Part shown: positions 4,089 to 55,518 of the stretch, piece after piece
How positions within the stretch are numbered: position 1 is the stretch's first letter
Layout: each line of letters begins with the position of its first letter
From: a virus
Length of the DNA stretch: 64,000 nt
Virus record (IMG/VR): IMGVR_UViG_3300045988_138952
Location: 1-64,000 of that record
Strand: one strand, 5' to 3'
Translations under genes and position numbers: made by a program
Notes under the pieces: generated by a model
Database searches by the model: none
The model's input: only the letters and a program-made list of their open reading frames with translations
Told to the model about the DNA's origin: nothing

Positions 4089-4096
4089 TATATTTG
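4089..4096 (+). promoter_or_regulatory. Bacteroides-type -7 promoter box TATATTTG
   Basis: Exact TAnnTTTG match in an intergenic region upstream of the antirepressor gene. Confidence 0.5.
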
Positions 4097-4129
4097 CAGC
4101 GTTCAACTTTTATCCAAAGGCAAGCGGAA

Positions 4130-4153
4130 GCCTGCCATAAGCGGGCATTTTTT
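4130..4153 (+). terminator. promoter-proximal intrinsic terminator inside a long-range inverted repeat
   Basis: GCCTGC-cataa-GCGGGC followed by T6. Flanked by arms 4101-4122 and 4220-4239 (11 bp + 6 bp complementary). Confidence 0.5.
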
Positions 4154-4333
4154 ATGCTTGCGAGTTTGACGCTACAATATAGTGGCTGCCACCCCCATAG
4201 GTATAGTTAATGCTATATCTGCCTTTGGATAGGTTGAACAATGGGACAGGGCAGCCTTTTTCTTTGCCCTATCCGAAAAGCCGGATATGGGCAGGCTACC
4301 AGCCCTATAATGCCAATAAAGTTCAATAAATCT

Positions 4334-5224
4334 ATGGCACAGTTAAATGGAAATTACTTAAACGGCACAAACATTGCTGTATTGGGTACGTCTGCTCACG
4401 AAACGAGCGAAATTATGGTTTACGAACACCCTCTATTCGGTAAAGTTCGCATGTTTATAAAAAATGAAAAGGCTTGGTTTTGCGGAATGGATATTGCAAC
4501 CTCTTTGCAGTATTCAAATACGCGTGACGCTATCGCAAGACACTGTAAATCACAGGGCGTCGTGATTCACGACGTCATAGATTCAATGGGAAGAACACAG
4601 CAAATGAAGTTTATCAGCGAAGGTAACATCTACCGGCTAACCGCCAAAAGCCAAATGCCGAAAGCTGATGAGTTTGAGAGTTGGATATTTGATGATGTTG
4701 TCCCGTCAGTAATTAATACCGGGAGCTATTCTCTCCAACCCCAACTTCCAAATTTCAATAATCCGGCAGAGTCTGCGCGGGCATGGGCGGACCAATACGA
4801 GAAGAACCAAATGCTTTCTTTAGAAGTAAAGAAGAAAGAAGAGGAAAAACAGGCTATCATAGAGGAAACAAAACCAGCTGTAATATTCAAAGACTGCGTG
4901 ACTGGCTCAGCTACAAACATTCTTGTAGGAGACCTCGCAAAACTCATTACCCAAAACGGATATAACATCGGAGAAATAAGGCTTTACGACTGGATGGTAG
5001 AGAACAAATACCTTATCAGAAAGCAAAGATACAGCAAGTCGAAGGATAAATACATAAATGACTATATGCCCACACAGCGGGCTATCGAAATGGGATTGTT
5101 CTTTGTAAGGGAAAGACCCATAGTGTCAGGTGATAGTCCCATATTCATAAAACATACATGTTATGTGACCGGGAGAGGACAAGTATATTTCTTGAATAAG
5201 TTTAAAACATTAATAGGAGCATAA
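4334..5224 (+). CDS. phage antirepressor, BRO-N domain plus KilAC/ANT C-terminal domain
   Basis: N-terminal FGKVRMFIKNEKAWFCGMDIATSLQYSNTRDAIARHC (BRO-N like). C-terminal LAKLITQNGYNIGEIRLYDWMVENKYLI..TQRAIEMGLF (KilAC like). Start may instead be 4241. Confidence 0.8.
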   Translation: MAQLNGNYLNGTNIAVLGTSAHETSEIMVYEHPLFGKVRMFIKNEKAWFCGMDIATSLQYSNTRDAIARHCKSQGVVIHDVIDSMGRTQQMKFISEGNIYRLTAKSQMPKADEFESWIFDDVVPSVINTGSYSLQPQLPNFNNPAESARAWADQYEKNQMLSLEVKKKEEEKQAIIEETKPAVIFKDCVTGSATNILVGDLAKLITQNGYNIGEIRLYDWMVENKYLIRKQRYSKSKDKYINDYMPTQRAIEMGLFFVRERPIVSGDSPIFIKHTCYVTGRGQVYFLNKFKTLIGA

Positions 5225-5226
5225 TT

Positions 5227-6072
5227 ATGAAAAGAGATGCAAGAACTCCGTTTTATGACATTATGTGCAGGGTAGAAGAAGATTGTACCTTAGCTATCTA
5301 TTTTAATAAAGTTATTAACGAACTCGATATAGTAAAGATATTATTTGCTCCAAAAACATTTGAAGATACCAAGGAAGAAAATAGAGACTTTGCTGAACGG
5401 TTTTATCAGAGTTGTTTATGGGAACTGTGGTTTTATCGCTCTTTATCAAGGCTTCATGAATGGGATGATACCCTCAATAAATACTTTTCTGAATACGAAG
5501 GGAAGTGGGAATTTTATGCTTGTTCAAAAAGACTTGAAGCTATCAAGGAATATGGAGGTGAAGAAACTGATTACAATGAGGACGGTAGCATAAAAACGTT
5601 AAGCCTAACTGAAGATGATTTGAGGTATCATACAGTTCTTGGCGAAATGGTGCAAGATGATTGGAGGGATATTGTGCAAGAAACTACCTGTGCCGATTTA
5701 CAGTACATGATTTCTTGTTTGAAAACTCATGCAAGTTTTTCTTTATCCGATGCTTTTAAGGAATGTTTCGGAAAAGAAATTGCTACTTATAAGCAAGATG
5801 AAAACGGCAATATGGTTCCAATGAGTTTTGCGGATAAGGCTATGGATAAGGCAGTAGAGCAATATACGGCTGACGGAATGGCTATTGGTATTACATTGGT
5901 TTGCGAATTTATCCAACGCATAATCAGGGATATTAGGGCAATGGATAAGTTCAGTGACAATAGAGACAAACTTATCCAAATACACAAGGACGTAAGAAAT
6001 ATCCTTGATTTTAACCTCGATGAAGTTTCCTATGTAGAGGAAATGCTCGAAGAGGAACGTAAAAACAAATAA
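5227..6072 (+). CDS. acidic hypothetical protein (281 aa)
   Basis: Track ORF, D/E rich, 3 nt after upstream stop. Confidence 0.6.
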   Translation: MKRDARTPFYDIMCRVEEDCTLAIYFNKVINELDIVKILFAPKTFEDTKEENRDFAERFYQSCLWELWFYRSLSRLHEWDDTLNKYFSEYEGKWEFYACSKRLEAIKEYGGEETDYNEDGSIKTLSLTEDDLRYHTVLGEMVQDDWRDIVQETTCADLQYMISCLKTHASFSLSDAFKECFGKEIATYKQDENGNMVPMSFADKAMDKAVEQYTADGMAIGITLVCEFIQRIIRDIRAMDKFSDNRDKLIQIHKDVRNILDFNLDEVSYVEEMLEEERKNK

Positions 6073-6202
6073 CATCAAGCTTTGCTCGCTTTATAAACGA
6101 GGTGGGCAAGCTTTATTCAATTCGTTCCCAAACTACAAAATTATAGTTTGGCTGATTTACAACGAATTACATTTTAAATAAAAGACTAAACAAATATTCA
6201 TC

Positions 6203-6436
6203 ATGGAAAGAAATACAACACCCGCTAAGAAGAAATACGACCTTAGCGCAATAGACGAATTATTCAAAGACTGCATATCTCCCGAAGAATTACGGGAAGA
6301 GCTTATTGAACTGGCTTTTGATTATGTGCAATACGTAGATGACGGGAATACAGATTTTGTCAAATCGAACATGAGCACCATATATGTATTGTGCTGTGCC
6401 CTACAAAAAGTAAAAGAATTAGAGACACCAAGCTAA
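6203..6436 (+). CDS. hypothetical protein (77 aa)
   Basis: Track ORF followed by inverted repeat CCAATGGA..TCCATTGG (6468-6510). Confidence 0.5.
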   Translation: MERNTTPAKKKYDLSAIDELFKDCISPEELREELIELAFDYVQYVDDGNTDFVKSNMSTIYVLCCALQKVKELETPS

Positions 6437-6568
6437 TACCCTCACCAAAACAGCAAGCGGTATAATCCAATGGAGAACCCGTTCAAAGCGTTCTAAACGT
6501 TCCATTGGATAACCCGGAAAAGGCGGCAATAGTCCATGTAAAGGACATTGTCCGCCAATTCAAGCAGT

Positions 6569-6739
6569 TCATCTATGTAATCCCTTTTTCGCATCACGTT
6601 CAAGTTTTCTACGTTGTTGGCGGTTTATACCATTTGCTATGGCAAGGCTGTTCAGCGTCTCTTTCTGTTCGGGAGAAAGCATGTTATATATTTCTTCCCG
6701 TGATTTGCCTGATAAAATGGCTTGTACTATTTTCCACAT
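6569..6739 (-). CDS. small basic protein (56 aa, below track cutoff)
   Basis: ATG 6739 overlaps the stop of the upstream minus-strand gene by 13 nt (6727-6739); hand translation MWKIVQAILSGKSREEIYNMLSPEQKETL... Confidence 0.35.
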   Translation of the reverse strand: MWKIVQAILSGKSREEIYNMLSPEQKETLNSLAIANGINRQQRRKLERDAKKGLHR

Positions 6740-7149
6740 AAGCTACGTCTACAATGTTCACACAAAAATTTCTTCGCTACCGGGAACATCTTCTGTCCCA
6801 CATATCCGCTAAGGTACTGCGCCTCTTCTCCATACGGGTCGATGCCGAACGCCCGTGAGATATGCCGGCATAGATGCCCCTTTTCATGGTCGAAAGAGTT
6901 CTGAAACTCTGCCGGGGAAGAGGTAAGGGCTATAACCATTACGGTTTGCCTGTTTCGGATATTGGAGTAAGTGATACCCGTATTCAGATTGCAGGAGCGC
7001 ATGTTCTTATAGGCATTCACCAAATCCAGCCCCCTGCATCCCACCCGCTGAAGGTCAGCGATGATACGGTCGGTATAATAGCAGTCCACCGCATAATATA
7101 CACGCACTTTCCAATCATAATCCGGTATGTAAAATTCCTGTATTATCAT
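6727..7149 (-). CDS. small HExxH metallopeptidase-like protein (140 aa)
   Basis: HEKGH motif; same layout as ORF 27599-27991 (HEIFH). Confidence 0.55.
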   Translation of the reverse strand: MIIQEFYIPDYDWKVRVYYAVDCYYTDRIIADLQRVGCRGLDLVNAYKNMRSCNLNTGITYSNIRNRQTVMVIALTSSPAEFQNSFDHEKGHLCRHISRAFGIDPYGEEAQYLSGYVGQKMFPVAKKFLCEHCRRSLCGK

Positions 7150-7152
7150 AGG

Positions 7153-10384: not shown

Positions 10385-10496
10385 TATCTTTGCCCTGCCA
10401 CATAAAATATTTGATTATATACGAACAAAGCATAAGATACCGTGTTGAAGATATTAAAGCCTCCAACGTGCGGTGTCTTATGCTTATCATGTTTTT
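10385..10496 (+). promoter_or_regulatory. TATCTTTG promoter box followed by long hairpin and T5 (possible short antisense or small RNA)
   Basis: Box 10385-10392; arms GCATAAGATACCGTG (10430-10444) and CGTGCGGTGTCTTATGC (10467-10483); T5 at 10492-10496. Confidence 0.35.
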
Positions 10497-10597
10497 ATGT
10501 GGCAATATTAACGTGAAACGTTGGGGGCTTTCTTTTTACTCTAAGCCCCCGAAAGAGTGTCAGCTACAAGCCAACTTCTACATCGTTAATTTCTTTT

Positions 10598-11262: not shown

Positions 11263-11332
11263 AACAATTAGTATATTTATGATATTAATTTCATCCCGGA
11301 CTGTGAAGTGCCGGGATGAATTTGTGTTAACC

Positions 11333-14821: not shown

Positions 14822-15469
14822 TTATCTTTCATTCAAATTGTGATAAAATTCTAATCTTATATTCGCATAGACCGACTCTACATTCGTGTATGTCCTCCCG
14901 TTGTTCGCTCCGTTTTCATTGTAAATCTCCGCTTCAACGGCTTTGGCAACCTGTTCTATCCATTTCCTTTCCGTGTATTCGGAAAGCCTGTTCCCACGAT
15001 ACGAAAAGCAGTCAAGTTTTGAATTCCTGTCCTCGTGTATGTTTGTAAGCAATGTACGTATCTTTCTTGCAGTAGCTTCCTTGTCTGATATATGGTTTTC
15101 TTCACGCACTTTCTTGATAATACGGCACACCTTCTCAACGGAAAGGTCGAAGAATACATTGCTTAGCGTTTTTATACGCAGCTGCGTTTCGGGCATGAGA
15201 CTTTCCGATAGCACGTTCAACCGCTCGTTCTGCGCGCGGGTTTCTTCCAATAGCTGCCTCATGGTGTCCTTATAGTCTTGGTTTATCTCTTTCTGTGATG
15301 TCATAAGCTGGTTTACCATATTCATAAACCAACGGAAACACGCCACCATCAACAAGGCTGATAACACAAGGAAAAAACCTGCGGTTATAGCCATCATTCC
15401 GAAATCACTAATACCCTTTCCTGTTTGAAGGGCTGCATTTACAACTTCTGTGTCCATGTTATCGTTCAT
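14822..15469 (-). CDS. membrane-anchored coiled-coil protein (215 aa)
   Basis: One TM (MMAITAGFFLVLSALLMVACF) then charged helical region. Confidence 0.55.
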   Translation of the reverse strand: MNDNMDTEVVNAALQTGKGISDFGMMAITAGFFLVLSALLMVACFRWFMNMVNQLMTSQKEINQDYKDTMRQLLEETRAQNERLNVLSESLMPETQLRIKTLSNVFFDLSVEKVCRIIKKVREENHISDKEATARKIRTLLTNIHEDRNSKLDCFSYRGNRLSEYTERKWIEQVAKAVEAEIYNENGANNGRTYTNVESVYANIRLEFYHNLNER

Positions 15470-15555
15470 TTGTCAATTATTCATATCTTTGTGTCTCTTA
15501 TCAAATAAGCGAACTACTGTCATTCCGTTTTGCTCGTGAGAGTAGGACGGGATTT

Positions 15556-16017
15556 TCATATCTTGCCGTAATATCTGAACCATGCGCCCCACTTTCGCTC
15601 TTTCAGATAGTTCGGATTATCCTGGTTGAGTTTGGCTTCCATTTCAAAGGCGCTTGCATAATAGGCATTGGCGTTCACTTTCCCATCACCGATTTGTTTG
15701 TCCTTGAACAAATGATATATAAAACTGATAAACCATTCCACACCGTACATTATATAGTACAAGGTGGGAATAAGAAGCATCCACCACCAGCTCACATACA
15801 GAGAAAGGAAAACCGCCGGTATCGTAGCAATTTCCATACATTCCTTGAACTGGAGCTGATGAATACGCTCCTCACGTTGTGCCTCAATAGGCAAACTTGC
15901 ATGTTTGGTAATGATGAAACCAAAGAACATCATCGTACCGTAGTTCTTGAACAGAATGGCTTTAGCGAGCCAATTCTCATAAAATACTTTTACTCTCATA
16001 ATCAAAAAAGTAAACAC
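15556..16017 (-). CDS. multi-pass membrane protein (153 aa)
   Basis: Track ORF with several hydrophobic segments. Confidence 0.5.
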   Translation of the reverse strand: MFTFLIMRVKVFYENWLAKAILFKNYGTMMFFGFIITKHASLPIEAQREERIHQLQFKECMEIATIPAVFLSLYVSWWWMLLIPTLYYIMYGVEWFISFIYHLFKDKQIGDGKVNANAYYASAFEMEAKLNQDNPNYLKERKWGAWFRYYGKI

Positions 16018-16043
16018 TTTGTTATTTTATTAATATTATTGTT

Positions 16044-16504
16044 TTACGCATTCATTAGAACACAAACCAAACCGAAAATCCCTGTACTATCTGCAATATC
16101 AAATACACTATCGCCATTATTAACGACAGAATCAGTTATTTCTATAACAAAATTATTGGCTACAGACTCCTTTTTTGTAATAGCTCTTATTGGAGTATTA
16201 TCTTCATTAAAAAGACTAATAGCAGTAGGTGCTCTAAATGAATACCATTCGATATGTTGTTTTTTTATTTCAGTTCTTACTGAATCTCGATATAAATAAA
16301 TAGGGATACTACTAAGATTGCAAATAAGAACAAGTTGTACATTAATTTCTTTATGTACTAAATCATCTGCAAATTTGATATTATCAACAAGTTGTTTAAT
16401 ATCAAATTCTTTGCCAGCAATAAGTTGATTTCCAATACGAATACTCGTATTACTTATACCTACTCTTACCCCCCCCCGTTAATATCTTTCGTATCTTTAT
16501 CCAT
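16044..16504 (-). CDS. hypothetical protein requiring a -1 shift (or G10) at a G9 tract; OFF as assembled
   Basis: ATG 16504, 12 codons, G9, TAA at 16468-16466. The -1 frame from 16469 is open for 141 codons to stop 16046-16044. Confidence 0.5.
16469..16477 (-). repeat. G9 homopolymer (C9 on plus strand) followed directly by 0-frame TAA
   Basis: Counted directly: ..gatattaac GGGGGGGGG taagag.. Confidence 0.95.
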
Positions 16505-23702: not shown

Positions 23703-23748
23703 AAAAAGAGCCAATCAACGGCATGCCCGTTAATCAGCTCTTTGGCTT
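23703..23748 (-). terminator. conserved late-leader terminator element, copy 1
   Basis: Minus strand CAAGCCAAAGAGCTGATTAACGGgcatgCCGTTGATTGGCTCTTTTTG, 30 nt upstream of the Dit ATG; near-identical flanks to 40158-40203. Confidence 0.6.
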
Positions 23749-23763: not shown

Positions 23764-23771
23764 CAAATATA
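23764..23771 (-). promoter_or_regulatory. -7 promoter box TATATTTG (minus strand)
   Basis: Plus strand caaatata; about 16 nt upstream of the terminator element. Confidence 0.45.
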
Positions 23772-23851
23772 TGGTGTATTTTCTAAATAATCAAGTAAAA
23801 GGTTAGAAAATTGATATAGTTATCCGGCTTACATTATATTTGCAATGAATA

Positions 23852-24744: not shown

Positions 24745-25509
24745 CTATTTTATAGGCGAAATCTTTCTGTCAGAAGGCTTTCCGCCAAATAGATGGTTGA
24801 TGTAGGCAAGACCTTTTGGTTTGCAAAACACCTTTTGGCATAATATGTCTGGGTGGTTGTCTCTGCGTATTGGCGGCAACAGCGTCATTTCAAAGTAGCC
24901 TGCGTCAATATACTTTTGTTTCGGTTCGTTCCTGTCTTTAAAGAATATGCCCGCATCCCTTAGCTTCCCGAAAAGGGTGTTCCTCCCAAAACCGAGATTG
25001 AGTATCTTTGCGGCTTGACCTATGTCTACTTTGCCCTCTGCTTTGAAAGCGGCTTCGGCAAAATCGGCTTTAGGCTGGAGTTTGGTAATCTTTGCATCTT
25101 TCTGCTCGATTTGCTTTTGTTGCTGCTCTGTTTCAATACGGAGTTGTTCCTTTTCCTTTTCAGAAGCTACTAACGCTTCCAATGCCTCAAGATAAGTTTG
25201 TGGAGTCTTGATAACTTTTTTCTCATTTTCGAGGTATTCTAAACGGTTGATTATTCTTTCGCGCAGAACCGCATCATAACCTGATGCAAGAATAAGACAA
25301 CCTTTAGGGGTGAGATTAAAACAAGGGCTTTGCCTATTAGATTTGTCAGTGTAAGAGGTCTCCACAAAATTGTGGGCAGCTACTCCTTGTTTGAGTAAGT
25401 TCCTGATGTCTCGTAAGATAGCATCATGCCTTTTACCCGTGACCTCTGCTATTTGAAGAGAGGTCATACCTTTCTGATTTGGAATTAACTCATTCGTTGT
25501 GTCAAGCAT
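24745..25509 (-). CDS. Rha-family regulatory protein fused to KilAC/ANT domain (second antirepressor-type gene)
   Basis: MTSLQIAEVTGKRHDAILRDIRNLL (Rha-like) and AAKILNLGFGRNTLFGKLRDAGIFF..YIDAGYFEM (KilAC-like). Start moved to internal ATG 25509. Confidence 0.8.
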   Translation of the reverse strand: MLDTTNELIPNQKGMTSLQIAEVTGKRHDAILRDIRNLLKQGVAAHNFVETSYTDKSNRQSPCFNLTPKGCLILASGYDAVLRERIINRLEYLENEKKVIKTPQTYLEALEALVASEKEKEQLRIETEQQQKQIEQKDAKITKLQPKADFAEAAFKAEGKVDIGQAAKILNLGFGRNTLFGKLRDAGIFFKDRNEPKQKYIDAGYFEMTLLPPIRRDNHPDILCQKVFCKPKGLAYINHLFGGKPSDRKISPIK

Positions 25510-25525: not shown

Positions 25526-25618
25526 ATAAAAAGAAACCCTCCGTAGGTGTGCTTGACACAACATACGCAGGGCATAGAAGTCGCAGATTGTTTCCTTTCT
25601 GCCACCTTAGAGGGTTTC
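25526..25618 (-). terminator. promoter-proximal long hairpin with T5 in the antirepressor leader
   Basis: Minus strand arms GAAACCCTCTAAGGTG / CACCTACGGAGGGTTTC followed by TTTTT; ends 17 nt before ATG 25509. Confidence 0.5.
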
Positions 25619-25685
25619 CCAATATCTTGTACAAAATTTGTTCGCTTTATTTTGCCCAAGAGTTATTATGTTGTATCAAGCACCG

Positions 25686-25693
25686 CAAAGATA
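25686..25693 (-). promoter_or_regulatory. -7 promoter box TATCTTTG (minus strand)
   Basis: Plus strand caaagata. Confidence 0.45.
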
Positions 25694-25823
25694 GCCCTTA
25701 TCTTTGAAATAGCAAACTTCTTATAAGAAAATTAATTAATTTCGTTTGTTTTCTAAGTTGTTATGCAAATATATAGAAAATTGACCGATTTGTCTAATTT
25801 AGTACATTATAAAAACAATAAAC

Positions 25824-40134: not shown

Positions 40135-40157
40135 CGTGTTTATTTAGTTTGTGTTAT

Positions 40158-40203
40158 AAAAAAAAAGAGCCTATCAGTGCTTTGTGCACTAATAAGCTCT
40201 TAG
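40158..40203 (-). terminator. conserved late-leader terminator element, copy 2
   Basis: Minus strand CAAGCCTAAGAGCTTATTAGTGCacaaaGCACTGATAGGCTCTTTTTTTTT, 24 nt upstream of the scaffold ATG. Confidence 0.6.
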
Positions 40204-40222
40204 GCTTGCATATGTAAAATTG

Positions 40223-40399
40223 CTATTCTTCTATTCTGACGCTGATAAAATTACGACATCTTCGGCATACAGTCCTAAACAATACGCTACCGTGTATTAT
40301 TTTTACATCGGTCAACTTTTGCCCGCACACCGGACATGTTACAAAATTCCCTTTTTCGCTGGTCTGTTTTTCATCCAGCTTAGCGTCTATCTTTATCAT
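40223..40399 (-). CDS. Com-like zinc-ribbon protein (58 aa, below track cutoff)
   Basis: CPVCGQKL-x18-CRRCRNF, two CxxC pairs in the layout of the Mu Com family. Confidence 0.55.
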   Translation of the reverse strand: MIKIDAKLDEKQTSEKGNFVTCPVCGQKLTDVKIIHGSVLFRTVCRRCRNFISVRIEE

Positions 40400-40418: not shown

Positions 40419-40426
40419 CAAATATA
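40419..40426 (-). promoter_or_regulatory. -7 promoter box TATATTTG (minus strand)
   Basis: Plus strand caaatata, 20 nt upstream of the Com-like ATG. Confidence 0.45.
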
Positions 40427-40500
40427 TAGTATATTTTCTAAAATACAATGCTTTATATGTATTTTTATATGAGAAATATTAGAAAATTTATAATAAATCG

Positions 40501-40508
40501 TATATTTG
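40501..40508 (+). promoter_or_regulatory. -7 promoter box TATATTTG for the terminase operon
   Basis: Exact TAnnTTTG in the divergent intergenic region. Confidence 0.5.
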
Positions 40509-40538
40509 CATTATATATAACTCATAGAGCTGTGATTC

Positions 40539-40586
40539 AAGCCGGAGTGTGCGGATTTATACTGCATACGCCGGCTTATTTTTTTT
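40539..40586 (+). terminator. promoter-proximal intrinsic terminator abutting the terminase start codon
   Basis: AAGCCGG..25 nt..CCGGCTT, then A and T8; ATG at 40587. Confidence 0.6.
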
Positions 40587-42200
40587 ATGGAACACGACAA
40601 GATTGTATATACGAAAAAGGGGGAGGGTGTATTCAGTTATGAATACATAGACAGGTTGCGTAATTTGAAAAATGATTTCAATGTTATAGCTCAATCCGGC
40701 GGGCAGGAGAACTCATTAGCTTCCGATGCCGACATTGTTATTATGGGAGGGAATCGTGGCGGTTCAAAAACATTTACTTTATTAATGGAATCCTTGCCAG
40801 ACATTAAAAATCCACGTTTTAATGCCGTTCTTCTGCGTAACGAGAAAGATGACCTTAGAGATATGATTAACACGTCGTATCTTATTTACTCCCAATTTGG
40901 AACTTATAACCGTTCTATATCGGATATGACTTGGAATTTTGGAGAAAACGCTGGAAAACTGTGGTTTTCTTATTTTGCTGATAATTTTGAGGATTTCAAG
41001 AAGCGCTTTCAAGGTAAACAGTTCTGTTATATCGGTATAGACGAAATAACCCATTGTTCTTATGACAAGTTTAAATACCTTATCACTTGCAACCGTAACG
41101 CTTATGGTATTAAAAACCGTTTTTGGGGTACTTGTAATCCGGACCCGGATAGCTGGGTGCGCGTTTTTATAGATTGGTGGATAGGAGAGGATGGGAATCC
41201 TATACCAGAACGCGATGGAAAGAAAAGATATTGTTTTATGGATGGAGATTCTCCCAATAATATATTTTGGGGAGACACGCCAGAAGAGGTATATGAACAA
41301 TGTAAATCCATCATAGACCCTCTTTGGAATGATGCTTACAAAAAATTGGGATTTAATAAGAAAACAATGTTTGTCAAGTCAGTCGTCTTTATACGGGCAC
41401 GTTTGGAGGATAATATCAAATTGATTGAGGCTGACTCAAATTATGCGGCTAATCTTGCCCAGCAGGATGAAGAATCCCGCGCTCGCGACCTCGAAGGAAA
41501 TTGGAATTTTAAAGCGGCTGGAGACGATATTCTTAAAATCGAACACATGGAGCGGTTCTTCAACAACTCCGCCCAATATGGAGATAATAAGCGAAGGGTA
41601 TCATGTGATATTGCATATGAAGGTGGAGATAATCTTGTCTTGTGGCTTTGGATTGGGAACCATATAGAGGACGTATATGTAAGTCGGGATAACTCCAAGC
41701 GGACGGAAGAGTGCGTCGCATATAAGTTGCGTGAATGGGGAGTCCTGGAGAAAGACTTTGTTTTTGACTTGAATGGACCTGGACAGGATTTTAAGGGCAA
41801 ATTCCCAGACGCGGTCAAGTTTAATAATATGGCAGCTCCTATCCCAACGACAAAAGCTGACGAACAATCTATAAAATATATCTATTCTTCCCTGAAATCA
41901 CAATGCGCTGATATTCTCGTTAAGAAGATTAAGAATGATGAAATTTCGATTAACCCCGATTTGTTGTCGCGTAAGTTTTCAGGAAACGGATATTCAGATA
42001 TGACACTTTATAATATCCTGATGAAAGAACGCAAAGCCATCCGGGATGCAGACACAGATAAAGGCTTCTCTTTAATTAAAAAGGAAGTGATGAAAAAGTA
42101 CGTCGGCCATTCTCCCGACTTTATAGAGGCTATGATTTACAGACAGATTTTTGATATAAGAAAACAACACACTAAACCAAAAGGATTATGGAGAATATAA
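40587..42200 (+). CDS. terL: terminase large subunit
   Basis: Walker A-like GGNRGGSKT, Walker B IGIDEITH, C-terminal nuclease-like CDIAYEGGDN. Confidence 0.9.
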   Translation: MEHDKIVYTKKGEGVFSYEYIDRLRNLKNDFNVIAQSGGQENSLASDADIVIMGGNRGGSKTFTLLMESLPDIKNPRFNAVLLRNEKDDLRDMINTSYLIYSQFGTYNRSISDMTWNFGENAGKLWFSYFADNFEDFKKRFQGKQFCYIGIDEITHCSYDKFKYLITCNRNAYGIKNRFWGTCNPDPDSWVRVFIDWWIGEDGNPIPERDGKKRYCFMDGDSPNNIFWGDTPEEVYEQCKSIIDPLWNDAYKKLGFNKKTMFVKSVVFIRARLEDNIKLIEADSNYAANLAQQDEESRARDLEGNWNFKAAGDDILKIEHMERFFNNSAQYGDNKRRVSCDIAYEGGDNLVLWLWIGNHIEDVYVSRDNSKRTEECVAYKLREWGVLEKDFVFDLNGPGQDFKGKFPDAVKFNNMAAPIPTTKADEQSIKYIYSSLKSQCADILVKKIKNDEISINPDLLSRKFSGNGYSDMTLYNILMKERKAIRDADTDKGFSLIKKEVMKKYVGHSPDFIEAMIYRQIFDIRKQHTKPKGLWRI

Positions 42201-47559: not shown

Positions 47560-48112
47560 TGTAAGTCGCTCATTTTGTGTTTAAAAGAACATAACGCATG
47601 CTCCTATAGGCGCATTTTATGAAAATAACCTTTTTTCTTTTATCTGTAAAGGCTAAATACATATATCTATGTTCTTTATCTTCATTATGCAAATATACAA
47701 CTATCTGATTATAAAACAAGTAAATTTTCTAATTAATATGCGTTAAAACATAGAAAATTACCCAATAATCATCCATATAGTGCAAAAATGTAAAAATACA
47801 ATGGTTGACTTGTTGTAAAATATCATTACAAATTGGTAGAAAATGGAGAAAATAAAAAATTTTTAGGCGAGGTGACTACGCCGATTTCCTTACAAAAATA
47901 AAGGGGTGGGGGGTGGCTCTTTGCAGGGTGTTTGCAATGTATTTTGTTGTATAATAGCGGTTTGCGGTTTACATTATACATATAATATAAAGTTTGTGTT
48001 TGTTTACATTGTTGTCGCTCGTCAGTCCTGGACATAAAGTAAAGGCTATCACGGCGCAGCCAAAGACACCCAATCCGGTAAATAAATAAAATCAATATCA
48101 CATGTATGTATT

Positions 48113-48283: not shown

Positions 48284-48782
48284 TGTATTTAAAGTGTTTA
48301 TTATGTTTGTTGTGGTATTATATATTTACATATTCTTATGGCTGTGTTTTATGTTGTAAGTGTTTTATATATAGTGTATTATGTTGTATCTGTTGTATGT
48401 TTTATAATATGATTATTTTATGAAAATATTTTGCAATATTCTTTGCTGTTTACAAAATAATTCGTACATTTGTAATGTAAGAAAGAGATAGATATAAGGT
48501 CCTGGTTCTTACAGGCGTGTTATTAAGTGTTGGAATAAAAAAGAGAGCCTTAACACTGCAATGTTAAGACCCTCGTAGGTTGGGAATACTTAAAGAAGTA
48601 CCCCCCCAAGCGGAGGCAAAAGTACTTCTTTAATTTCTCACCTGCAAATATTCTTCCATTTATTTACATACTTGATACAAATACGTTTTAGTCTTATTGT
48701 GTTAGGCTTCTGGTATCGTGTTGTATTGGTTTACGTGTACGCGCTATAATGTTGAATCATTAACAATTTAAACTATAGCATT

Positions 48783-51981: not shown

Positions 51982-52058
51982 TATGCTTTAAAACATGCTG
52001 TATAAGATGAATTAAAGAAGGATAAACGGTATTTTTGCAAACAATTAAAAACAAGGTT

Positions 52059-52259: not shown

Positions 52260-52260
52260 A

Positions 52261-52500: not shown

Positions 52501-52506
52501 TTTTAT

Positions 52507-52557
52507 AACCCAGTGGGTTGTTGCGCTTGTTTTGGGTTGAATTTAACCCACTGGGTT
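52507..52557. terminator. perfect 13-bp inverted repeat between convergent genes
   Basis: AACCCAGTGGGTT (52507-52519) and AACCCACTGGGTT (52545-52557). Confidence 0.5.
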
Positions 52558-52564
52558 GTTTGGA

Positions 52565-53698
52565 TTATAACTTGCTGTCCATCTTTTCAAATTCTTCCTG
52601 CACGGACTTATTCAACACCTTCGCGTATATCTGGGTTGTCTTTATATCTGTATGTCCCATCATTTTGGCAAGGTTTTCGATTGATACGCCCATATTCAGA
52701 GCCATTACCGCAAAACTGTGTCTTGCCATGTGGGAATGAAGGCTTTGCTTTATTCTTGCAATTTCCTGAACGACTTTCAACCTTAAATTATATTGGTAAT
52801 TGCTTATTATCGGTAGCTTGAAGTCGTATTTTCTCAATATTTCCATTGCGGGCTTTAGGAGCATAAGAAAGTATTCTTCTTCTGTTTTTATTCTAATATC
52901 TCTAATAAAAAATTTGCTTCCTTTCTTGATTACTCCGCAGAAATCGAATTTGGATAAATCTGCATAAGACAGACCGGTGAAGCATTGGAAGACAAATAAG
53001 TCCCTAACCTTACTAATGCTTTCTGATGTTATTTCTAAGTTCTGTATTTGCTTTATTTGGTCCATGGTAAGGTATTTTATTCCTTCGCTTTTCCCACGGT
53101 CAAATTTGAGTCTATTATATGGGTTGTCTTTTAACAACTCATATTTAATAGCTTCGTTTATATATCTTTTCAAGCGTTTGTGATAGCCATGAACGGTTGT
53201 CTGTTTATTATATTTCTTATGTAGGAAATCATCATAATACATTATGTTGGCCGTTGTTATGTCGGAAAAATAAACGATTCTACCAAATTCTTCCAGAGAG
53301 TTTATTAATGTAGCATGGGTGTTTAAAGTTCCCTTTCTTAAATCTGTTCTTTCGCTTACCCGGCGCTTTATGAAGTCAAGAAAACTCTCTTTCTGCTGTG
53401 AATACTTTAGGAAATGCTCCAGCTTTTCAAAGTTAAAGGGTTCCTTGTTCTTTATAAGTGAGTTGATAAATTCGTTTATATTCTGTATCTGCGCATCGAG
53501 TCTTTCGTTCAGGTCTATGGACTGAACTGTATTCTTGACTTTGTTTTTTTCGCTCCATTGGTCGGAATATAGCCTAACGCCTGTACTAATCCATTTCCTT
53601 TTCCGTTCAAATAATATTTCTATCTGAACGGTTCCTTTTGTTGTCTTGCTTGCTGTGTGTTTCCGGTCAAACACAAATCTTACTGTTGGGTACTTCAT
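52565..53698 (-). CDS. int: site-specific integrase (tyrosine recombinase, Bacteroides phage/CTn type)
   Basis: 377 aa; HMARHSFAVMALNMG and MGHTDIKTTQIYAKV catalytic motifs; N-terminal arm-binding-like region. Confidence 0.9.
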   Translation of the reverse strand: MKYPTVRFVFDRKHTASKTTKGTVQIEILFERKRKWISTGVRLYSDQWSEKNKVKNTVQSIDLNERLDAQIQNINEFINSLIKNKEPFNFEKLEHFLKYSQQKESFLDFIKRRVSERTDLRKGTLNTHATLINSLEEFGRIVYFSDITTANIMYYDDFLHKKYNKQTTVHGYHKRLKRYINEAIKYELLKDNPYNRLKFDRGKSEGIKYLTMDQIKQIQNLEITSESISKVRDLFVFQCFTGLSYADLSKFDFCGVIKKGSKFFIRDIRIKTEEEYFLMLLKPAMEILRKYDFKLPIISNYQYNLRLKVVQEIARIKQSLHSHMARHSFAVMALNMGVSIENLAKMMGHTDIKTTQIYAKVLNKSVQEEFEKMDSKL

Positions 53699-53712
53699 AA
53701 TTTAAAAGATTT

Positions 53713-53964
53713 GGTATCACACAAGGGTATCACATTTGTTGCACATTTCATGAAATACAATGAAATATAGTGAACTAAAATGAAACAAATATAGAACCGC
53801 GTTTGTTCGTATAAATCATTGATAATTACATAATATGCTGATAATAAGAAAAAAGGGGTTACATTTCTGTAATCCCTTGCTGTGATTCGCTTGGGATTGT
53901 GTTATAAAACTTATTTATTTGATTATCACATTGTTATATAGGTTTATTACTGCATGGTATCACA
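53713..53964. repeat. GGTATCACA direct repeats (candidate integrase arm-type or regulator sites)
   Basis: Exact copies at 53713, 53726 and 53956, plus ATTATCACA at 53922; region immediately upstream of int. Confidence 0.4.
53859..53886 (-). terminator. intrinsic terminator (minus strand)
   Basis: GGGATTACA-gaaa-TGTAACCCC followed by T6 on the minus strand. Confidence 0.6.
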
Positions 53965-54277
53965 ATAGTATCTTTTTTATTTTGCTAATCTGTTCTTCGT
54001 ATTTCCAGGTATCATCTATCATATTGCCTTTCCCAGAACATAGCCACTTAACATTAAGCATAGGGAATGCTTCGGAAATCCGGGATATTATATCACTTCC
54101 TATCGTTCCTCTGCCTTTTCCACTTTTATCCGAATTACTGATATATCCATTTCCTATATTACAGTATACTTCAAAGGAGCTATATCCTTTTACAATTTTC
54201 AGTTCATACCTTGCATAGTGAGCAAATGTCTTTAGCCTGTCTATCGCCCTTTCGTTTTGTTCTGTATTTTTTTTCAT
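53960..54277 (-). CDS. CI-type HTH protein (single domain)
   Basis: ISRISEAFPMLNVKWLCSGKGNM, the same W-L-x-x-G-x-G ending as the repressor domains. Confidence 0.55.
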   Translation of the reverse strand: MKKNTEQNERAIDRLKTFAHYARYELKIVKGYSSFEVYCNIGNGYISNSDKSGKGRGTIGSDIISRISEAFPMLNVKWLCSGKGNMIDDTWKYEEQISKIKKILL

Positions 54278-54403
54278 TAAATATTTAGTAATAATTTTAT
54301 TTCACAAAAACATGCTTAATAACATATTAATATTCAAAACATTTATTGAACAATGATGTTATATGTTATACAAACTATCATTTTTAATAAACAAAGTAAT
54401 ATC

Positions 54404-54613
54404 ATGGAAGAAGTTAACCTTTCTGCGCCCTGTATGATGAAGCAAATTAAAATTCTTACGCAACAATTACTACGACTATCCGAGGACCTTGAATTGGCCC
54501 ACGAAAGAATTTCCGTATTGGAAAAAGACTTTGAAACGCATAAATCTGAACTGCACCATAAACATCCGGTTTATAAAATGAATATATTACATTCAAAAGT
54601 TACCGGATTTTAA
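54404..54613 (+). CDS. small coiled-coil protein
   Basis: Internal ATG of track ORF; divergent from 53960-54277. Confidence 0.4.
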   Translation: MEEVNLSAPCMMKQIKILTQQLLRLSEDLELAHERISVLEKDFETHKSELHHKHPVYKMNILHSKVTGF

Positions 54614-54652
54614 GAATAAGCAAGAACCGCCCCTACAAAATAGGGGTTGTTC

Positions 54653-55363
54653 TTAAGCTGTCTTTTTTTCTTCCAATACATTTTTTACGTCTAAAAGCGC
54701 TTGTTCAAGTTCGTCTCTTGCTTTCGCAATAGTCTGTTCAAGCTCGTTAAACTGTTTTTTCAGTTTACCAAAAAGCCTTTCGTATCTTGAAACGGTTGTT
54801 TCATACAGCCTTGACAGCTCATCGCAAGAGAGAGACACGGAATCTGTGTCCTGCTGACTCGAACCGCTATCTTCATCTTCTATGAACATAGGTCCTTTGC
54901 CGGTGAGGATGTAGTTGGCGTTGACTTGGGGGTATGCTTCGCAAAGCTGAGCTATTATATCACCAGATATAGCCTTAGTAACCCCTTTTTTGTAATGGGA
55001 TATTTTAGCTTGTGCATTTTTCACGCCACAATCTTTTTCAAGCAAATATGGACTAATCTTTAAGCACTCCATAACCTCTAAAAAGCGTTCACTTGCAGCC
55101 ACGATGATACTTTCACCAATATTTTCTTCGTTCTCATTTTTAGAAAAAGGTTGTCCTTCTCCTGTAATAAGCCACACCCGGCTATATTCAGGAAATACTG
55201 ATAATATTTTATCCGCATAATTAGCACTTATGGCTTTTATTTTCCCATCACGAATATCATACAATGGCTGTGCCCTCTTAATCCCCATCAACTGAGATAA
55301 CTTAGAAAGAGTCACTTTCTCATTATCAGTGATAAACTCTAATATTTCCCTACTGTTCATCAT
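54653..55363 (-). CDS. CI-like repressor with two HTH domains and C-terminal coiled coil
   Basis: LSQLMGIKRAQPLYDIRDGK..YSRVWLITGEG and LEKDCGVKNAQAKISHYKKG..NANYILTGKGPMF. Start moved to ATG 55363. Confidence 0.7.
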   Translation of the reverse strand: MMNSREILEFITDNEKVTLSKLSQLMGIKRAQPLYDIRDGKIKAISANYADKILSVFPEYSRVWLITGEGQPFSKNENEENIGESIIVAASERFLEVMECLKISPYLLEKDCGVKNAQAKISHYKKGVTKAISGDIIAQLCEAYPQVNANYILTGKGPMFIEDEDSGSSQQDTDSVSLSCDELSRLYETTVSRYERLFGKLKKQFNELEQTIAKARDELEQALLDVKNVLEEKKTA

Positions 55364-55369
55364 AATAAT

Positions 55370-55410
55370 ACTGTATTTATTTGGAGATACAGTAAAATAC
55401 TGTATCTTTG
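55370..55410 (+). promoter_or_regulatory. operator/promoter module O1: three TACTGTAT half-sites overlapping TATCTTTG
   Basis: TACTGTAT (55370), GATACAGTA-aaa-TACTGTATC (55386-55406), -7 box at 55403-55410. Confidence 0.6.
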
Positions 55411-55413
55411 CAC

Positions 55414-55518
55414 CCGTTGCAAGTAGAGAGGCAACAGACACATGATTAAACAATCGCCCTAACGTGGGCTTTTCTATATGGAAATCCGTTGCCTCTCTAC
55501 TTTAGCAACGGATTTTTT
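55414..55518 (+). terminator. attenuator: terminator hairpin plus upstream complementary (anti-terminator-like) segment
   Basis: Terminator AAATCCGTTGC..GCAACGGATTT + T6 (55482-55518). Segment 55414-55435, CCGTTGCAAGTAGAGAGGCAAC, is complementary to the terminator 5' arm and loop. Confidence 0.55.

What the first reader, a model, noticed from the sequence alone, without database searches (positions are those of the whole stretch)
4089..55518. Promoter-proximal terminators at several operon starts imply genome-wide antitermination control
Several TAnnTTTG boxes are followed within about 20-70 nt by a hairpin plus T-run, before the first gene:
- 4089 then 4130-4153 (BRO/KilAC antirepressor);
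- 25693 then 25618-25526, minus strand (Rha/KilAC antirepressor);
- 23771 then 23748-23703, minus strand (Dit block);
- 40426, then the Com-like ORF, then 40203-40158, minus strand (capsid block);
- 40501 then 40539-40586, whose T8 abuts the terminase ATG;
- 55403 then 55482-55518;
- weaker cases at 10385-10496 and at 48624 then 48574-48537 (minus strand).

This resembles lambda pR'-tR' logic, but applied to many units.

The boxes fall into two sequence flavours:
- TATATTTG(C/T): sites 4089, 23771, 28155, 40426 and 40501;
- TATCTTTGC: sites 10385, 25693, 55403 and 57597.

No Q-, N- or NusG/UpxY-like antiterminator is recognisable among the ORFs, so the factor would be novel. Alternatively, the short transcripts are themselves regulatory RNAs.
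Basis: partly seen in the sequence, partly recalled or inferred. Interest (0 to 1): 0.7.

Follow-up and report, generated by a model that had tools for sequence, protein, structure and literature searches.

The report
Late-gene leader terminators plus antisense-RNA switches
In this gut Bacteroides phage the "promoter then terminator" pairs are real, but they are several different devices: terminators in front of the three structural-gene blocks that carry the RNA motif bound by a Mu Com-type zinc protein encoded beside them, and small antisense RNAs that hold two antirepressor genes in check.

Summary
The pairing exceeds chance: 9 of 26 intergenic boxes have a terminator within 170 nt, against 0.6 in shuffles.

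The single "genome-wide antitermination" reading is only partly supported, because the sites fall into separate classes.

1. **Late units (23771, 40426/40203, 40501).** They share a dyad (ATTTTCTA…TAGAAAAT), a TATATTTGCA box and a covarying intrinsic terminator tagged with AGAGC. A 58-aa homologue of Mu Com (hhalign 93.5%) sits next to them. This module is conserved in about 90 related phages and prophages of several Bacteroidales groups. The capsid and tail terminators carry the published Com RNA motif CC(N)2-3GAG at the 5' foot of the stem.
2. **Antirepressor leaders (25693, 4089).** These are P1-immI-type c4 antisense-RNA modules. One is Rfam c4-2. The other is a family with no Rfam match. 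In both, the leader, the sRNA loop and the start codon are mutually complementary.
3. **55403.** This is an operator-controlled early promoter with a structured leader RNA.
4. **48624 and 10385.** These are stand-alone structured RNAs.

No Q, N, NusG or sigma family was found among about 85 ORFs. The best candidate factor for the late class is the Com-like protein; this is inferred and untested.

The parts
23778..23811 (.). Dyad ATTTTCTA-N18-TAGAAAAT in the tail-block promoter region
   Evidence: the dyad pattern occurs exactly 3 times in the window, with 0.00 expected. It is conserved in relatives.
23764..23771 (-). Late-type -7 box TATATTTG(CA) of the tail block
   Evidence: Conserved in L081-L160.
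23738..23745 (-). CCAAAGAG: the Com-type RNA motif CC(N)3GAG at the 5' foot of the tail-block leader terminator
   Evidence: present in 4 of 4 distinct tail-side contexts. The motif was defined experimentally in PMC6483171.
23695..23743 (-). Leader terminator of the tail block: a 16-17 bp hairpin plus T-run, lying between the box and the first gene (ATG 23673)
   Evidence: -19.7 kcal/mol. Covariation: 98.4% of cells paired, 4 pairs with changes on both sides, and G.U pairs that are valid only on the gene-sense strand.
40433..40487 (.). Dyad ATTTTCTA-N39-TAGAAAAT between the divergent late promoters
40419..40426 (-). Late-type -7 box driving the Com-like ORF and the capsid block
40223..40399 (-). 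58-aa zinc-ribbon protein homologous to Mu Com. It is the only ORF that a late promoter reaches without first crossing a terminator.
   Evidence: CPxC…CxxC invariant; hhalign against Mu Com gives 93.5% probability, E 2.3e-7. It is syntenic in 77 IMG/VR loci and in 16 of 19 prophage loci. Pfam PF10122 is not reached.
40197..40204 (-). CCTAAGAG: the Com-type RNA motif at the 5' foot of the capsid-block terminator
   Evidence: present in 12 of 15 distinct capsid-side contexts.
40156..40201 (-). Terminator (hairpin plus T9) between the Com-like ORF and the first capsid-block gene (ATG 40134)
   Evidence: -20.9 kcal/mol. Searches show conservation and covariation.
40501..40508 (+). Late-type -7 box of the terminase unit
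40526..40530 (+). Conserved AGAGC motif, 8 nt 5' of the TerL leader hairpin
   Evidence: GAG is present in 17 of 17 distinct TerL-side contexts.
40539..40586 (+). TerL leader terminator: a 39-nt hairpin plus T8 that abuts the ATG at 40587
   Evidence: -23.7 kcal/mol. Covariation: 100% of cells paired, 3 pairs changed on both sides. A hairpin is kept, with different sequence, at TerL identities of 52-64%.
47724..47758 (.). Third copy of the dyad, upstream of the 47690-47697(-) box of the D5_N primase/helicase gene. This unit has no leader terminator.
25667..25693 (-). TATCTTTG box followed by a1, the 5' leader site complementary to the c4-2 loop
   Evidence: 1 mismatch in 17..
25530..25619 (-). 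c4-2 RNA (Rfam RF02944). Its loop a' lies at 25549-25565.
   Evidence: 43.7 bits against a gathering score of 41, E 4e-6..
25495..25509 (-). a2: the target of the c4-2 loop, overlapping the AUG of the Rha/KilAC antirepressor gene (24745-25509)
   Evidence: a 14-bp duplex that starts at the UG of the AUG. It co-varies with the loop in L236. Gene identity.
4089..4122 (+). TATATTTG box followed by a1 (4101-4122) of a second c4-like module
4141..4161 (+). Conserved small hairpin whose loop is the AUUUUUUAU run. The preceding 4130-4146 hairpin is not conserved across the family.
   Evidence: sequence comparison.
4184..4265 (+). sRNA 3' domain: closing stem GGCTGCC/GGCAGCC, an inner hairpin, single-stranded a' (4220-4239), and the U-run at 4257-4265
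   Evidence: Covariation between a1 and a': 5 of 9 pairs changed on both sides. There is no Rfam match.
4268..4327 (+). Candidate a2 sites (CCTATCCGAA at 4268-4277; GTTCAAT at 4321-4327) around the likely true start ATG 4310 of the BRO/KilAC antirepressor (to 5224)
   Evidence: In the relatives L192, L197, L198, L199 and L222, a2 starts at the UG of the AUG and co-varies with a'.
55369..55410 (+). Operator repeats TACTGTAT / ATACAGTA / TACTGTAT overlapping the 55403 box, divergent from the CI-like HTH gene at 54653-55363(-)
   Evidence: The same layout is found at 57565-57607.
55412..55518 (+). Structured leader RNA: a 5' hairpin (55416-55435) whose loop is complementary to the loop of the terminator hairpin (55485-55512), followed by T6
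   Evidence: 6 of 12 pairs changed on both sides.
48537..48653 (-). Conserved two-hairpin sRNA. The likely -7 box is GAATATTTGCAGG (48641-48653). The terminator is 48543-48574 plus T6.
10385..10538 (+). Box followed by a very stable structured element with a c4-like layout: a1 at 10397-10407, a' at 10493-10503, closing stem 10458-10468 / 10519-10529, then a T-run. No a2 was found and no gene follows on the + strand.
   Evidence: z -6.3..

Best explanation
The box-then-hairpin pairs are real regulatory elements of a LoVEphage-like temperate Bacteroides phage, but they belong to separate systems.

**A. Late units.** The tail, capsid and terminase units each start with a shared late promoter module: the dyad ATTTTCTA…TAGAAAAT plus a TATATTTGCA box. 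An intrinsic terminator follows, tagged with AGAGC. RNA polymerase must read through that terminator to express the structural genes.

The most likely helper is the phage's Mu Com-type zinc-ribbon RNA-binding protein. It is the first product of a late promoter, and its gene is followed directly by such a terminator. The cognate motif CC(N)2-3GAG forms the 5' foot of the capsid and tail terminator stems. Binding to the nascent RNA there would stop the lower stem from closing next to the U-run, and so allow read-through. This step is inferred. It would delay structural genes relative to dyad-controlled genes that have no terminator, such as the primase.

**B. Antirepressor genes.** Each of the two antirepressor genes is preceded by a P1-immI-type module in the order: promoter, a1, structured sRNA carrying a', U-run, a2 at the AUG. 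The sRNA pairs with the start-codon region and blocks antirepressor synthesis. In the primary transcript, a1 can pair with a' instead, and this excludes the terminator-like closing stem. That would make a1 a built-in RNA antiterminator (inferred from folding).

**C. Other sites.** 55403 is the repressor-controlled early promoter with a structured, terminated leader. 48624 and 10385 are stand-alone structured RNAs.
For: **Shown**
- Box and terminator coordinates, and their excess over chance.
- Late-class motifs: TAGAAAA…box 3 against 0.19 expected; the dyad 3 against 0.00; AGAGC…GCTCTTTT 2 against 0.04.
- Hairpin covariation with sense-strand G.U pairs.
- The whole module (box, AGAG, terminator and TerL on one side; Com-like ORF and terminator on the other) is present in all 77 IMG/VR loci, with 48 distinct upstream regions and TerL identity of 61-100%.
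- The module is also present in cultured phage BI-TP1.
- It is present in 16 of 19 prophage loci from Bacteroides, Phocaeicola, Parabacteroides, Muribaculaceae, Sangeribacter, Dysgonomonas and unclassified Bacteroidales.
- A Com-like profile compared with authentic Mu Com gives 93.5% probability, E 2.3e-7, and aligns both CxxC pairs.
- Mu-type Com binds RNA at CC(N)2-3GAG, next to a structure that it remodels (PMC6483171).
- CC-N2-4-GAG sits exactly at the stem foot in 12 of 15 capsid-side and 4 of 4 tail-side distinct contexts. Over all contexts the count is 18 of 36, against 1.3 in shuffles.
- The late leaders have no competing fold.
- c4-2 scores above the Rfam gathering threshold.
- a1 and a2 complementarity, with co-variation.
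- The second family shows three-way co-variation in five lineages.
- Alternative folds: for c4-2, -51.4 kcal/mol for the a1-a' form against -35.7 for the closing-stem form; for the 4089 leader, -62.1 against -61.3.
- The P1 layout a1,b1 - c4 - a2,b2 - ant is described in the supplement of PMC2864571. c4-2 is called a likely distant c4 homologue in PMC5737381.
- Operators at both early promoters.
- No Q, N, NusG or sigma Pfam family in about 85 ORFs.
Against: - There are no transcript data here. Transcription start sites, termination and read-through in Bacteroides are all inferred.
- The Com-like protein does not reach the Pfam PF10122 cut-off. One orthologue scores 22.2 against 22.9; the rest do not hit. 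A narrower profile gave only 21% probability.
- The AF2 model has low confidence (pLDDT 58).
- In Mu, Com activates translation. It is not known to affect termination.
- In Mu the motif lies in a hairpin loop. Here it lies in the 5' flank and base of the stem.
- The TerL leader keeps AGAGC but usually lacks the CC prefix (2 of 17 contexts).
- The shared dyad shows that control at initiation exists, and that could be sufficient on its own.
- In the window's 4089 copy, a2 is weak (10 bp, and not at the AUG).
Confidence: 0.55

Rival explanations
1. One novel phage antiterminator, acting like lambda Q or N, modifies RNA polymerase. It allows read-through at all the listed sites across the genome.
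For: Terminator-like elements follow many boxes. No known antiterminator family is found.
Against: - The sites differ in promoter flavour, upstream motifs and RNA architecture.
- Two sites are c4-type sRNA modules with their own targets.
- One site is operator-controlled.
- Two sites have no downstream gene on the same strand, or the 'box' lies inside a stem.
- Only three sites share the dyad, the AGAGC tag and the terminator.
Confidence: 0.07
2. The late leader terminators are passive attenuators or insulators. They damp leaky transcription in the lysogen. Late timing is set only at initiation, by a regulator that binds the ATTTTCTA…TAGAAAAT dyad. No dedicated antiterminator exists.
For: The dyad lies at all late promoter regions and at one further promoter. 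Intrinsic terminators are never fully efficient (general knowledge).
Against: - Hairpins of -20 to -28 kcal/mol with T7-T9 would waste most transcripts of the most highly expressed genes.
- A specific sequence (AGAGC, CC-N3-GAG) is conserved at the stem foot across bacterial families. A generic terminator does not need that.
- Synteny with a Com homologue is strict.
Confidence: 0.2
3. The Com-like protein works exactly as in Mu, as a translational activator. It opens the hairpins so that ribosomes can load on the first gene of each late unit. The U-runs are secondary features.
For: Homology to Mu Com and its motif. The TerL hairpin ends 9 nt before the AUG.
Against: - In the capsid and tail units, the start codon lies 22-31 nt beyond the U-run, in an A-rich unstructured stretch that is not occluded by the hairpin.
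- U-runs of 6-9 are conserved in every lineage.
Confidence: 0.12
4. The Com-like zinc protein is a DNA-binding late-gene activator, like P2 Ogr. It recognises the dyad. The hairpins are unrelated to it.
For: Small Cys4 late activators exist: the P2 Ogr family (own knowledge, not tested here). The gene sits at the late promoter region. The dyad is conserved.
Against: The profile matches Mu Com, which is an RNA binder. The Com RNA motif sits at the terminators. No Ogr_Delta family appeared among the Pfam hits displayed at E≤10, where only the best 25 per protein are shown.
Confidence: 0.08
5. The short terminated leader transcripts are themselves trans-acting regulatory RNAs, like StxS from the Stx-phage pR' promoter.
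For: This is true by homology and complementarity for the c4-type modules. It is a known precedent for pR' leaders (PMC7547250, listed).
Against: For the three late leaders no target complementarity was found. The conserved part is the stem foot, not a seed-like loop.
Confidence: 0.1

Closest known systems
Lambda pR'-tR' with Q antiterminator (late operon control)
   Same: A late promoter is followed within about 30 nt by a strong intrinsic terminator that lies ahead of the structural genes. A short terminated leader RNA is expected.
   Different: - There are three separate late units, not one.
- No Q-family protein is found.
- The candidate factor is an RNA-binding Com homologue whose motif lies in the terminator stem. 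That would mean local antitermination at the RNA level, not a DNA-loaded processive factor.
- The promoters use the Bacteroides -7 box.
Phage Mu Com-mom translational activation
   Same: A zinc-ribbon protein of about 60 aa, homologous by profile comparison. It is encoded immediately upstream of an RNA hairpin region carrying CC(N)2-3GAG, which controls the next gene(s).
   Different: - In Mu the structure hides the mom start codon, and Com activates translation of one accessory gene.
- Here the structure is an intrinsic terminator in front of the capsid and tail operons.
- The motif is at the stem foot rather than in a loop.
- The Pfam threshold is not reached.
P1/P7 immI: c4 antisense RNA controlling icd-ant (Rfam clan CL00128; c4-2 is RF02944)
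   Same: The order is promoter, a1, c4-type RNA, a2, antirepressor. The sRNA loop is complementary both to the leader and to the translation start. The element at 25530-25619 scores above the c4-2 threshold.
   Different: - There is a single a' element, not a' plus b'.
- The target is the AUG itself, as Bacteroidetes make little use of Shine-Dalgarno sequences (own knowledge).
- The closing stem plus U-run looks like an intrinsic terminator that a1 pairing would exclude.
- The 4089 element has the same logic but matches no Rfam model.
RNA-binding antiterminators acting on leader terminators (BglG/SacY, HutP), and HIV Tat-TAR (compared with Com in PMC6483171)
   Same: A protein binding to nascent leader RNA decides whether polymerase proceeds.
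   Different: The protein fold is unrelated. Those bacterial proteins stabilise an alternative antiterminator hairpin. Here, binding would directly block the foot of the terminator stem (inferred).
LoVEphage / Bacteroides phage BI-TP1 (candidate family 'Ouimbyviridae')
   Same: The closest named phages, at about 68% nucleotide identity over TerL. They have the same arrangement of Com-like ORF, terminator and TerL. Temporal early and middle-late expression has been reported for LoVE (bioRxiv 10.64898/2026.06.25.734096).
   Different: The window phage is a distinct lineage. In those phages a tRNA array is inserted between the Com-like ORF and the capsid terminator. The papers read here do not describe this regulatory module.

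Membership tests
Rfam c4-2 RNA (RF02944, c4 antisense clan): element 25530-25619(-) | Covariance-model score at or above the curated gathering score | tested here: met
   43.7 bits against 41, E 4e-6, with the full model (positions 1-79) matched.
Rfam c4-2 RNA (RF02944, c4 antisense clan): element 25530-25619(-) | Lies upstream of an antirepressor gene, on the same strand | tested here: met
   ORF 24745-25509 has pRha and ANT (KilAC) domains. The U-run ends 17 nt before its ATG.
Rfam c4-2 RNA (RF02944, c4 antisense clan): element 25530-25619(-) | Loop a' is complementary to an upstream site (a1) and to a downstream site (a2) at the translation start | tested here: met
   a1 forms a 17-bp duplex and a2 a 14-bp duplex that includes the UG of the AUG. 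All three sites co-vary in L236. The P1 layout comes from the supplement of PMC2864571.
Rfam c4-2 RNA (RF02944, c4 antisense clan): element 25530-25619(-) | A stable sRNA is released and represses the antirepressor in trans | not testable with these tools
   Needs northern blots or RNA-seq, plus genetics.
c4 antisense clan: element 4097-4265(+) | Match to any Rfam c4-clan model | tested here: not met
   no c4-clan match, even at E≤10 in a 191-nt scan.
c4 antisense clan: element 4097-4265(+) | a1 - sRNA(a') - a2 logic upstream of an antirepressor | tested here: inconclusive
   - a1 to a' is met: 14-22 bp in the window, with covariation in relatives.
- a2 at the AUG is clear, and co-varies, in L192, L197, L198, L199 and L222.
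- In the window copy, a2 is only 10 bp at 4268-4277, or 7 bp at 4321-4327.
Lambda-type Q antitermination | An intrinsic terminator lies between the late promoter and the late genes | tested here: met
Lambda-type Q antitermination | A Q-family protein is encoded | tested here: not met
   No Q or antiterminator Pfam family in about 85 ORFs at E≤1e-3.
Lambda-type Q antitermination | A Q-binding DNA element and a sigma-dependent promoter-proximal pause | not testable with these tools
   Needs in vitro transcription with Bacteroides RNA polymerase.
Mu Com family (Pfam PF10122 Zn_ribbon_Com): ORF 40223-40399(-) | Pfam score at or above the gathering score | tested here: not met
   The window protein has no PF10122 hit among those displayed. 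One orthologue (L068) scores 22.2 bits against the 22.9 cut-off. Eight distant orthologues have no hit.
Mu Com family (Pfam PF10122 Zn_ribbon_Com): ORF 40223-40399(-) | Homology to the Mu Com zinc-binding domain: about 60 aa with CxxC…CxxC | tested here: met
   a profile of 14 orthologues against Mu Com (from AF083977) gives 93.5% probability, E 2.3e-7, covering Mu residues 3-34. The four Cys are invariant. A narrower profile gave 21%.
Mu Com family (Pfam PF10122 Zn_ribbon_Com): ORF 40223-40399(-) | The cognate RNA motif CC(N)2-3GAG lies beside a regulatory RNA structure just downstream of the com gene | tested here: met
   The motif is defined in PMC6483171. It is present at the stem foot in 11-12 of 15 capsid-side and 3-4 of 4 tail-side distinct contexts, but in only 2 of 17 TerL-side contexts.
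Mu Com family (Pfam PF10122 Zn_ribbon_Com): ORF 40223-40399(-) | Binds RNA and changes expression of the downstream gene | not testable with these tools
   Needs gel shifts and reporter assays.
NusG/UpxY-like antiterminators | An NGN or KOW domain protein is encoded | tested here: not met
   None found among about 85 ORFs.
Bacteroides primary-sigma promoters (-7 TAnnTTTG) | The motif is enriched upstream of genes | tested here: met
   2.88 per kb in intergenic DNA against 0.93 per kb in coding DNA. Most intergenic boxes face a gene.
Bacteroides primary-sigma promoters (-7 TAnnTTTG) | Transcription starts a few nt downstream of the box | not testable with these tools
   Needs dRNA-seq or Cappable-seq.

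The most novel reading that the evidence does not exclude
A Mu Com-type zinc-ribbon protein acts as a sequence-specific RNA-binding transcription antiterminator. It binds CC-N3-GAG at the 5' foot of leader terminators. In this way it times capsid, tail and terminase expression in a large group of temperate Bacteroidales phages that includes LoVEphage. In parallel, c4-type sRNAs in these phages work through an sRNA-controlled attenuator, in which the a1 site serves as a built-in antiterminator.
Probability: 0.3. Interest if true: 0.8.

Novelty: new variant of a known kind. Interest (0 to 1): 0.6.

Why it matters
How temperate Bacteroides phages switch on late genes is essentially uncharacterised, although they are among the most abundant viruses of the human gut.

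This analysis turns a vague pattern into a concrete, testable module that is conserved across several Bacteroidales lineages:
- a dyad-controlled late promoter;
- a terminator carrying a Com-type RNA motif;
- a Com homologue encoded next to it.

If the Com-like protein relieves termination, the known role of the Com family would extend from translational activation of one accessory gene in Mu to transcriptional timing of virion genes. It would also give a small orthogonal RNA-protein switch for engineering Bacteroides.

The work also shows that P1-style c4 antisense immunity is used twice in one Bacteroides phage. It defines a second c4-like RNA family that is missing from Rfam. It further suggests that the leader site a1 acts as an RNA antiterminator.

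Tried and rejected
- **One mechanism for all sites.** Rejected after comparing relatives site by site.
- **Rfam.** Whole-window scans, and permissive scans of 4085-4275, 10385-10545 and 55400-55950, returned only c4-2 as a credible match.
- **PHROGs.** Uninformative for the key ORFs.
- **Com-like against Mu Com.** A narrow 12-sequence profile gave 21% probability with a mis-registered alignment. Only a wider 14-sequence profile gave a convincing match.
- **Pfam PF10122.** Not reached.
- **Further relatives of the Com-like protein.** Scanning viral contigs with the Com alignment returned only close relatives. The word-indexed protein search did the same.
- **Structure prediction.** The AlphaFold model was too poor to use for fold search (pLDDT 58).
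- **Downstream targets (a2) of the 55403 and 10385 RNAs.** Searches in the window found nothing.
- **TFIIS_M hit.** A hit of 24.2 bits, below the 29.2 cut-off, was traced to ORF 14822-15469, next to the endolysin. It was judged spurious.
- **The 47690 promoter.** It has the dyad, but its leader has no terminator.
- **Covariance model for the 4089 family.** Not built, because only about four independent lineages align cleanly.

Full report
**Context**

The window is a temperate siphovirus-like phage or prophage of Bacteroides.
- It encodes TerL, an SPP1-type portal, a tape-measure protein and an M15 endolysin.
- It also encodes two integrase-family proteins, a CI-like HTH protein and two KilAC antirepressors.
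- The closest named phages are LoVEphage and Bacteroides phage BI-TP1, at about 68% nucleotide identity over TerL.
- Close and distant relatives are abundant in IMG/VR and in Bacteroidales genomes.

**Observation**

Two corrections apply. The box given as 57597 is at 57600. The ATG at 4241 lies inside a structured RNA, so the antirepressor probably starts at 4310.

The chance figures are:
- TAnnTTTG is not enriched overall: 77 against 69.9±9.2.
- It is three times denser between genes: 2.88 against 0.93 per kb, with 26 intergenic boxes.
- Nine of those 26 boxes are followed within 170 nt by a hairpin plus T-run, against 0.58±0.71 in shuffled leaders. Four reach ≤-12 kcal/mol, against 0.12.

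The pattern is therefore real. The question is what it is.

**Class 1: late structural units**

Three sites form one class: 23771(-), 40426(-) and 40501(+).
- They share TAGAAAAT upstream of a TATATTTGCA box (3 sites against 0.19 expected).
- This is half of a dyad, ATTTTCTA-N18-39-TAGAAAAT. The dyad occurs exactly three times in 64 kb, with 0.00 expected. Two copies are at these promoter regions and one is at the primase/helicase promoter at 47690.
- Each of the three is followed by a strong intrinsic terminator of -19.7 to -23.7 kcal/mol with T6-T9.
- For the tail and terminase units the terminator comes directly after the promoter.
- For the capsid unit it comes after a 58-aa ORF.
- The leaders have no competing structure.

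The terminator hairpins covary.
- TerL leader: 14 pairs, 100% of cells paired, 3 pairs changed on both sides.
- Capsid and tail terminators: 16 pairs, 98.4% of cells paired, 4 pairs changed on both sides.
- Many G.U pairs are legal only on the gene-sense strand.

The module is widely conserved.
- All 77 TerL-related IMG/VR loci keep it: 48 distinct upstream regions, TerL identity 61-100%.
- Cultured phage BI-TP1 keeps it, with a tRNA array inserted.
- 16 of 19 prophage loci keep it at 52-59% TerL identity. They come from Bacteroides, Phocaeicola, Parabacteroides, Muribaculaceae, Sangeribacter, Dysgonomonas and unclassified Bacteroidales.
- Stem sequences differ completely between lineages. A short tag, AGAG(C), is kept next to or at the base of every hairpin.

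**The small ORF is a Com homologue**

- Pfam does not call it. One orthologue scores 22.2 bits against a cut-off of 22.9.
- A narrow profile failed, with 21% probability.
- A profile of 14 diverse orthologues matches authentic Mu Com at 93.5% probability, E 2.3e-7. The Mu sequence was taken from record AF083977. The alignment covers both CxxC pairs.
- Mu-type Com is an RNA-binding zinc finger. It recognises CC(N)2-3GAG beside a structure that it remodels (PMC6483171).
- That motif forms the 5' foot of the capsid and tail terminators: CCTAAGAG at 40197-40204 and CCAAAGAG at 23738-23745, with GAG as the first stem bases.
- CC-N2-4-GAG is present at that exact place in 12 of 15 capsid-side and 4 of 4 tail-side distinct contexts. 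Over all contexts the count is 18 of 36, against 1.3 in shuffles.
- The TerL leader keeps AGAGC 8-14 nt before the stem, but usually lacks the CC prefix (2 of 17 contexts).

**Inference for class 1**

The dyad indicates a shared DNA-binding regulator at initiation. The terminators add a second requirement that applies only to structural genes.

The Com-like protein is the only late-promoter product made without crossing a terminator. It is encoded directly upstream of a terminator that carries its family's RNA motif. It is therefore the best candidate to relieve termination. It would do so by holding the GAG foot of the stem single-stranded until polymerase has passed the U-run.

This mechanism is not shown. 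Three alternatives stay open:
- passive attenuation with no dedicated factor;
- purely translational activation, as in Mu;
- a DNA-binding role for the protein.

No Q, N, NusG/KOW or sigma family was found in about 85 ORFs.

**Class 2: antirepressor leaders**

The element at 25530-25619(-) is Rfam c4-2: 43.7 bits against a gathering score of 41. The authors who described c4-2 regard it as a likely distant homologue of the P1/P7 c4 antisense RNA (PMC5737381).
- Its loop (25549-25565) is complementary to a site at the 5' end of the leader: 25667-25683, 17 bp with one G.U pair.
- It is also complementary to the start-codon region of the Rha/KilAC gene: 25495-25508, 14 bp beginning at the UG of the AUG.
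- In a relative (L236), all three sites change together.
- This is the a1 - c4 - a2 - ant order described for P1 (supplement of PMC2864571).

The 4089 site is a second module of the same logic, but it matches no Rfam model. Its parts are:
- a1 at 4101-4122;
- a 3' domain closed by GGCTGCC/GGCAGCC and followed by a U-run at 4257-4265;
- a' held single-stranded at 4220-4239.

In five related lineages a1, a' and the first codons of the BRO/KilAC gene co-vary. In the window copy the a2 match is weaker.

Constrained folding shows that a1-a' pairing and the closing stem exclude each other. For c4-2 the a1-a' form is strongly favoured: -51.4 against -35.7 kcal/mol. For the 4089 leader the two are about equal: -62.1 against -61.3. 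This suggests, by inference only, that a1 is a built-in antiterminator, and that free sRNA would both promote termination and block translation.

**Other sites**

- **55403 and 57600.** Both lie in identical operator arrays, TACTGTAT / ATACAGTA / TACTGTAT-CTTTGC. The 55403 array lies next to, and divergent from, the CI-like gene. These are early promoters.
- **The 55403 transcript.** It begins with a covarying structured RNA that ends in a terminator.
- **48624.** The 'box' is inside the first hairpin of a conserved two-hairpin sRNA, whose promoter is probably at 48641-48653.
- **10385.** This starts a very stable element with a c4-like layout (z -6.3). It has no a2, and no gene follows on that strand.

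**Verdict**

Antitermination-type control is plausible for the three late units, and it now has a concrete candidate factor and RNA site. The antirepressor sites are a known kind of device, c4 antisense immunity, with one member absent from Rfam. The remaining sites are an early leader and stand-alone sRNAs.

Overall this is a new variant of known kinds, of moderate to good interest, because the late module is conserved across gut Bacteroidales phages and is directly testable.

Noticed in passing
window 55535-55935: About 400 nt between the 55403 leader terminator and the first early ORF (55954) are almost invariant across relatives whose flanks diverge. Indels are 1-2 nt long, and there are compensatory changes (CACGG..CCGTG to CATGG..CCATG; GTTATTG..CAATAAC to GTTATAG..CTATAAC). 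The mechanical ORF 55560-55805(-) is therefore probably spurious, and this looks like a large structured RNA. It has no Rfam match, and its strand is undetermined.
   Followed up: partly
window 48602-48608 (poly-G on the - strand, in the loop of the 5' hairpin of the 48624 sRNA): The G-run length varies from about G6 to G10 among otherwise near-identical relatives. This could be a hypervariable homopolymer or assembly noise.
   Followed up: no
window 4241-4309: The longest ORF of the BRO/KilAC antirepressor starts inside the sRNA closing stem. Relatives align only from residue 28-32. The true start is probably ATG 4310 or 4334.
   Followed up: partly
L292 (BI-TP1) 1300-2200; L455-L457, L465-L469: In many relatives one tRNA gene, or an array of several, is inserted between the Com-like ORF and the capsid-block terminator. 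It would then be transcribed from the late promoter ahead of the terminator.
   Followed up: no
window 25686-25706: The 25693(-) box and a 25699(+) box are the two arms of an inverted repeat, CAAAGATA-N5-TATCTTTG. This could be an operator overlapping the c4-2 promoter. A second box at 25766-25773(-) lies 80 nt upstream, giving tandem promoters.
   Followed up: no
window 14822-15469 (-): This ORF, next to the M15 endolysin, gives a sub-threshold TFIIS_M hit: 24.2 bits against a cut-off of 29.2, over 38 residues. It is probably spurious.
   Followed up: partly
window 15484-15553 (+): A further TATCTTTG box is followed by a 14-bp hairpin (15522-15553) with only a weak T-run, ahead of ORF 15712-16299.
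   Followed up: no
window 11290-11320 (+): A strong hairpin (-19.5 kcal/mol) lies on the + strand between two - strand genes, with a poor T-run. Its role is unknown.
   Followed up: no
L235 (IMG/VR 3300045988_148741), upstream of a KilAC-type gene fragment: A member of the 55403-type leader RNA family sits upstream of an antirepressor-like gene rather than next to a repressor gene. This hints that the RNA is a mobile regulatory cassette.
   Followed up: no
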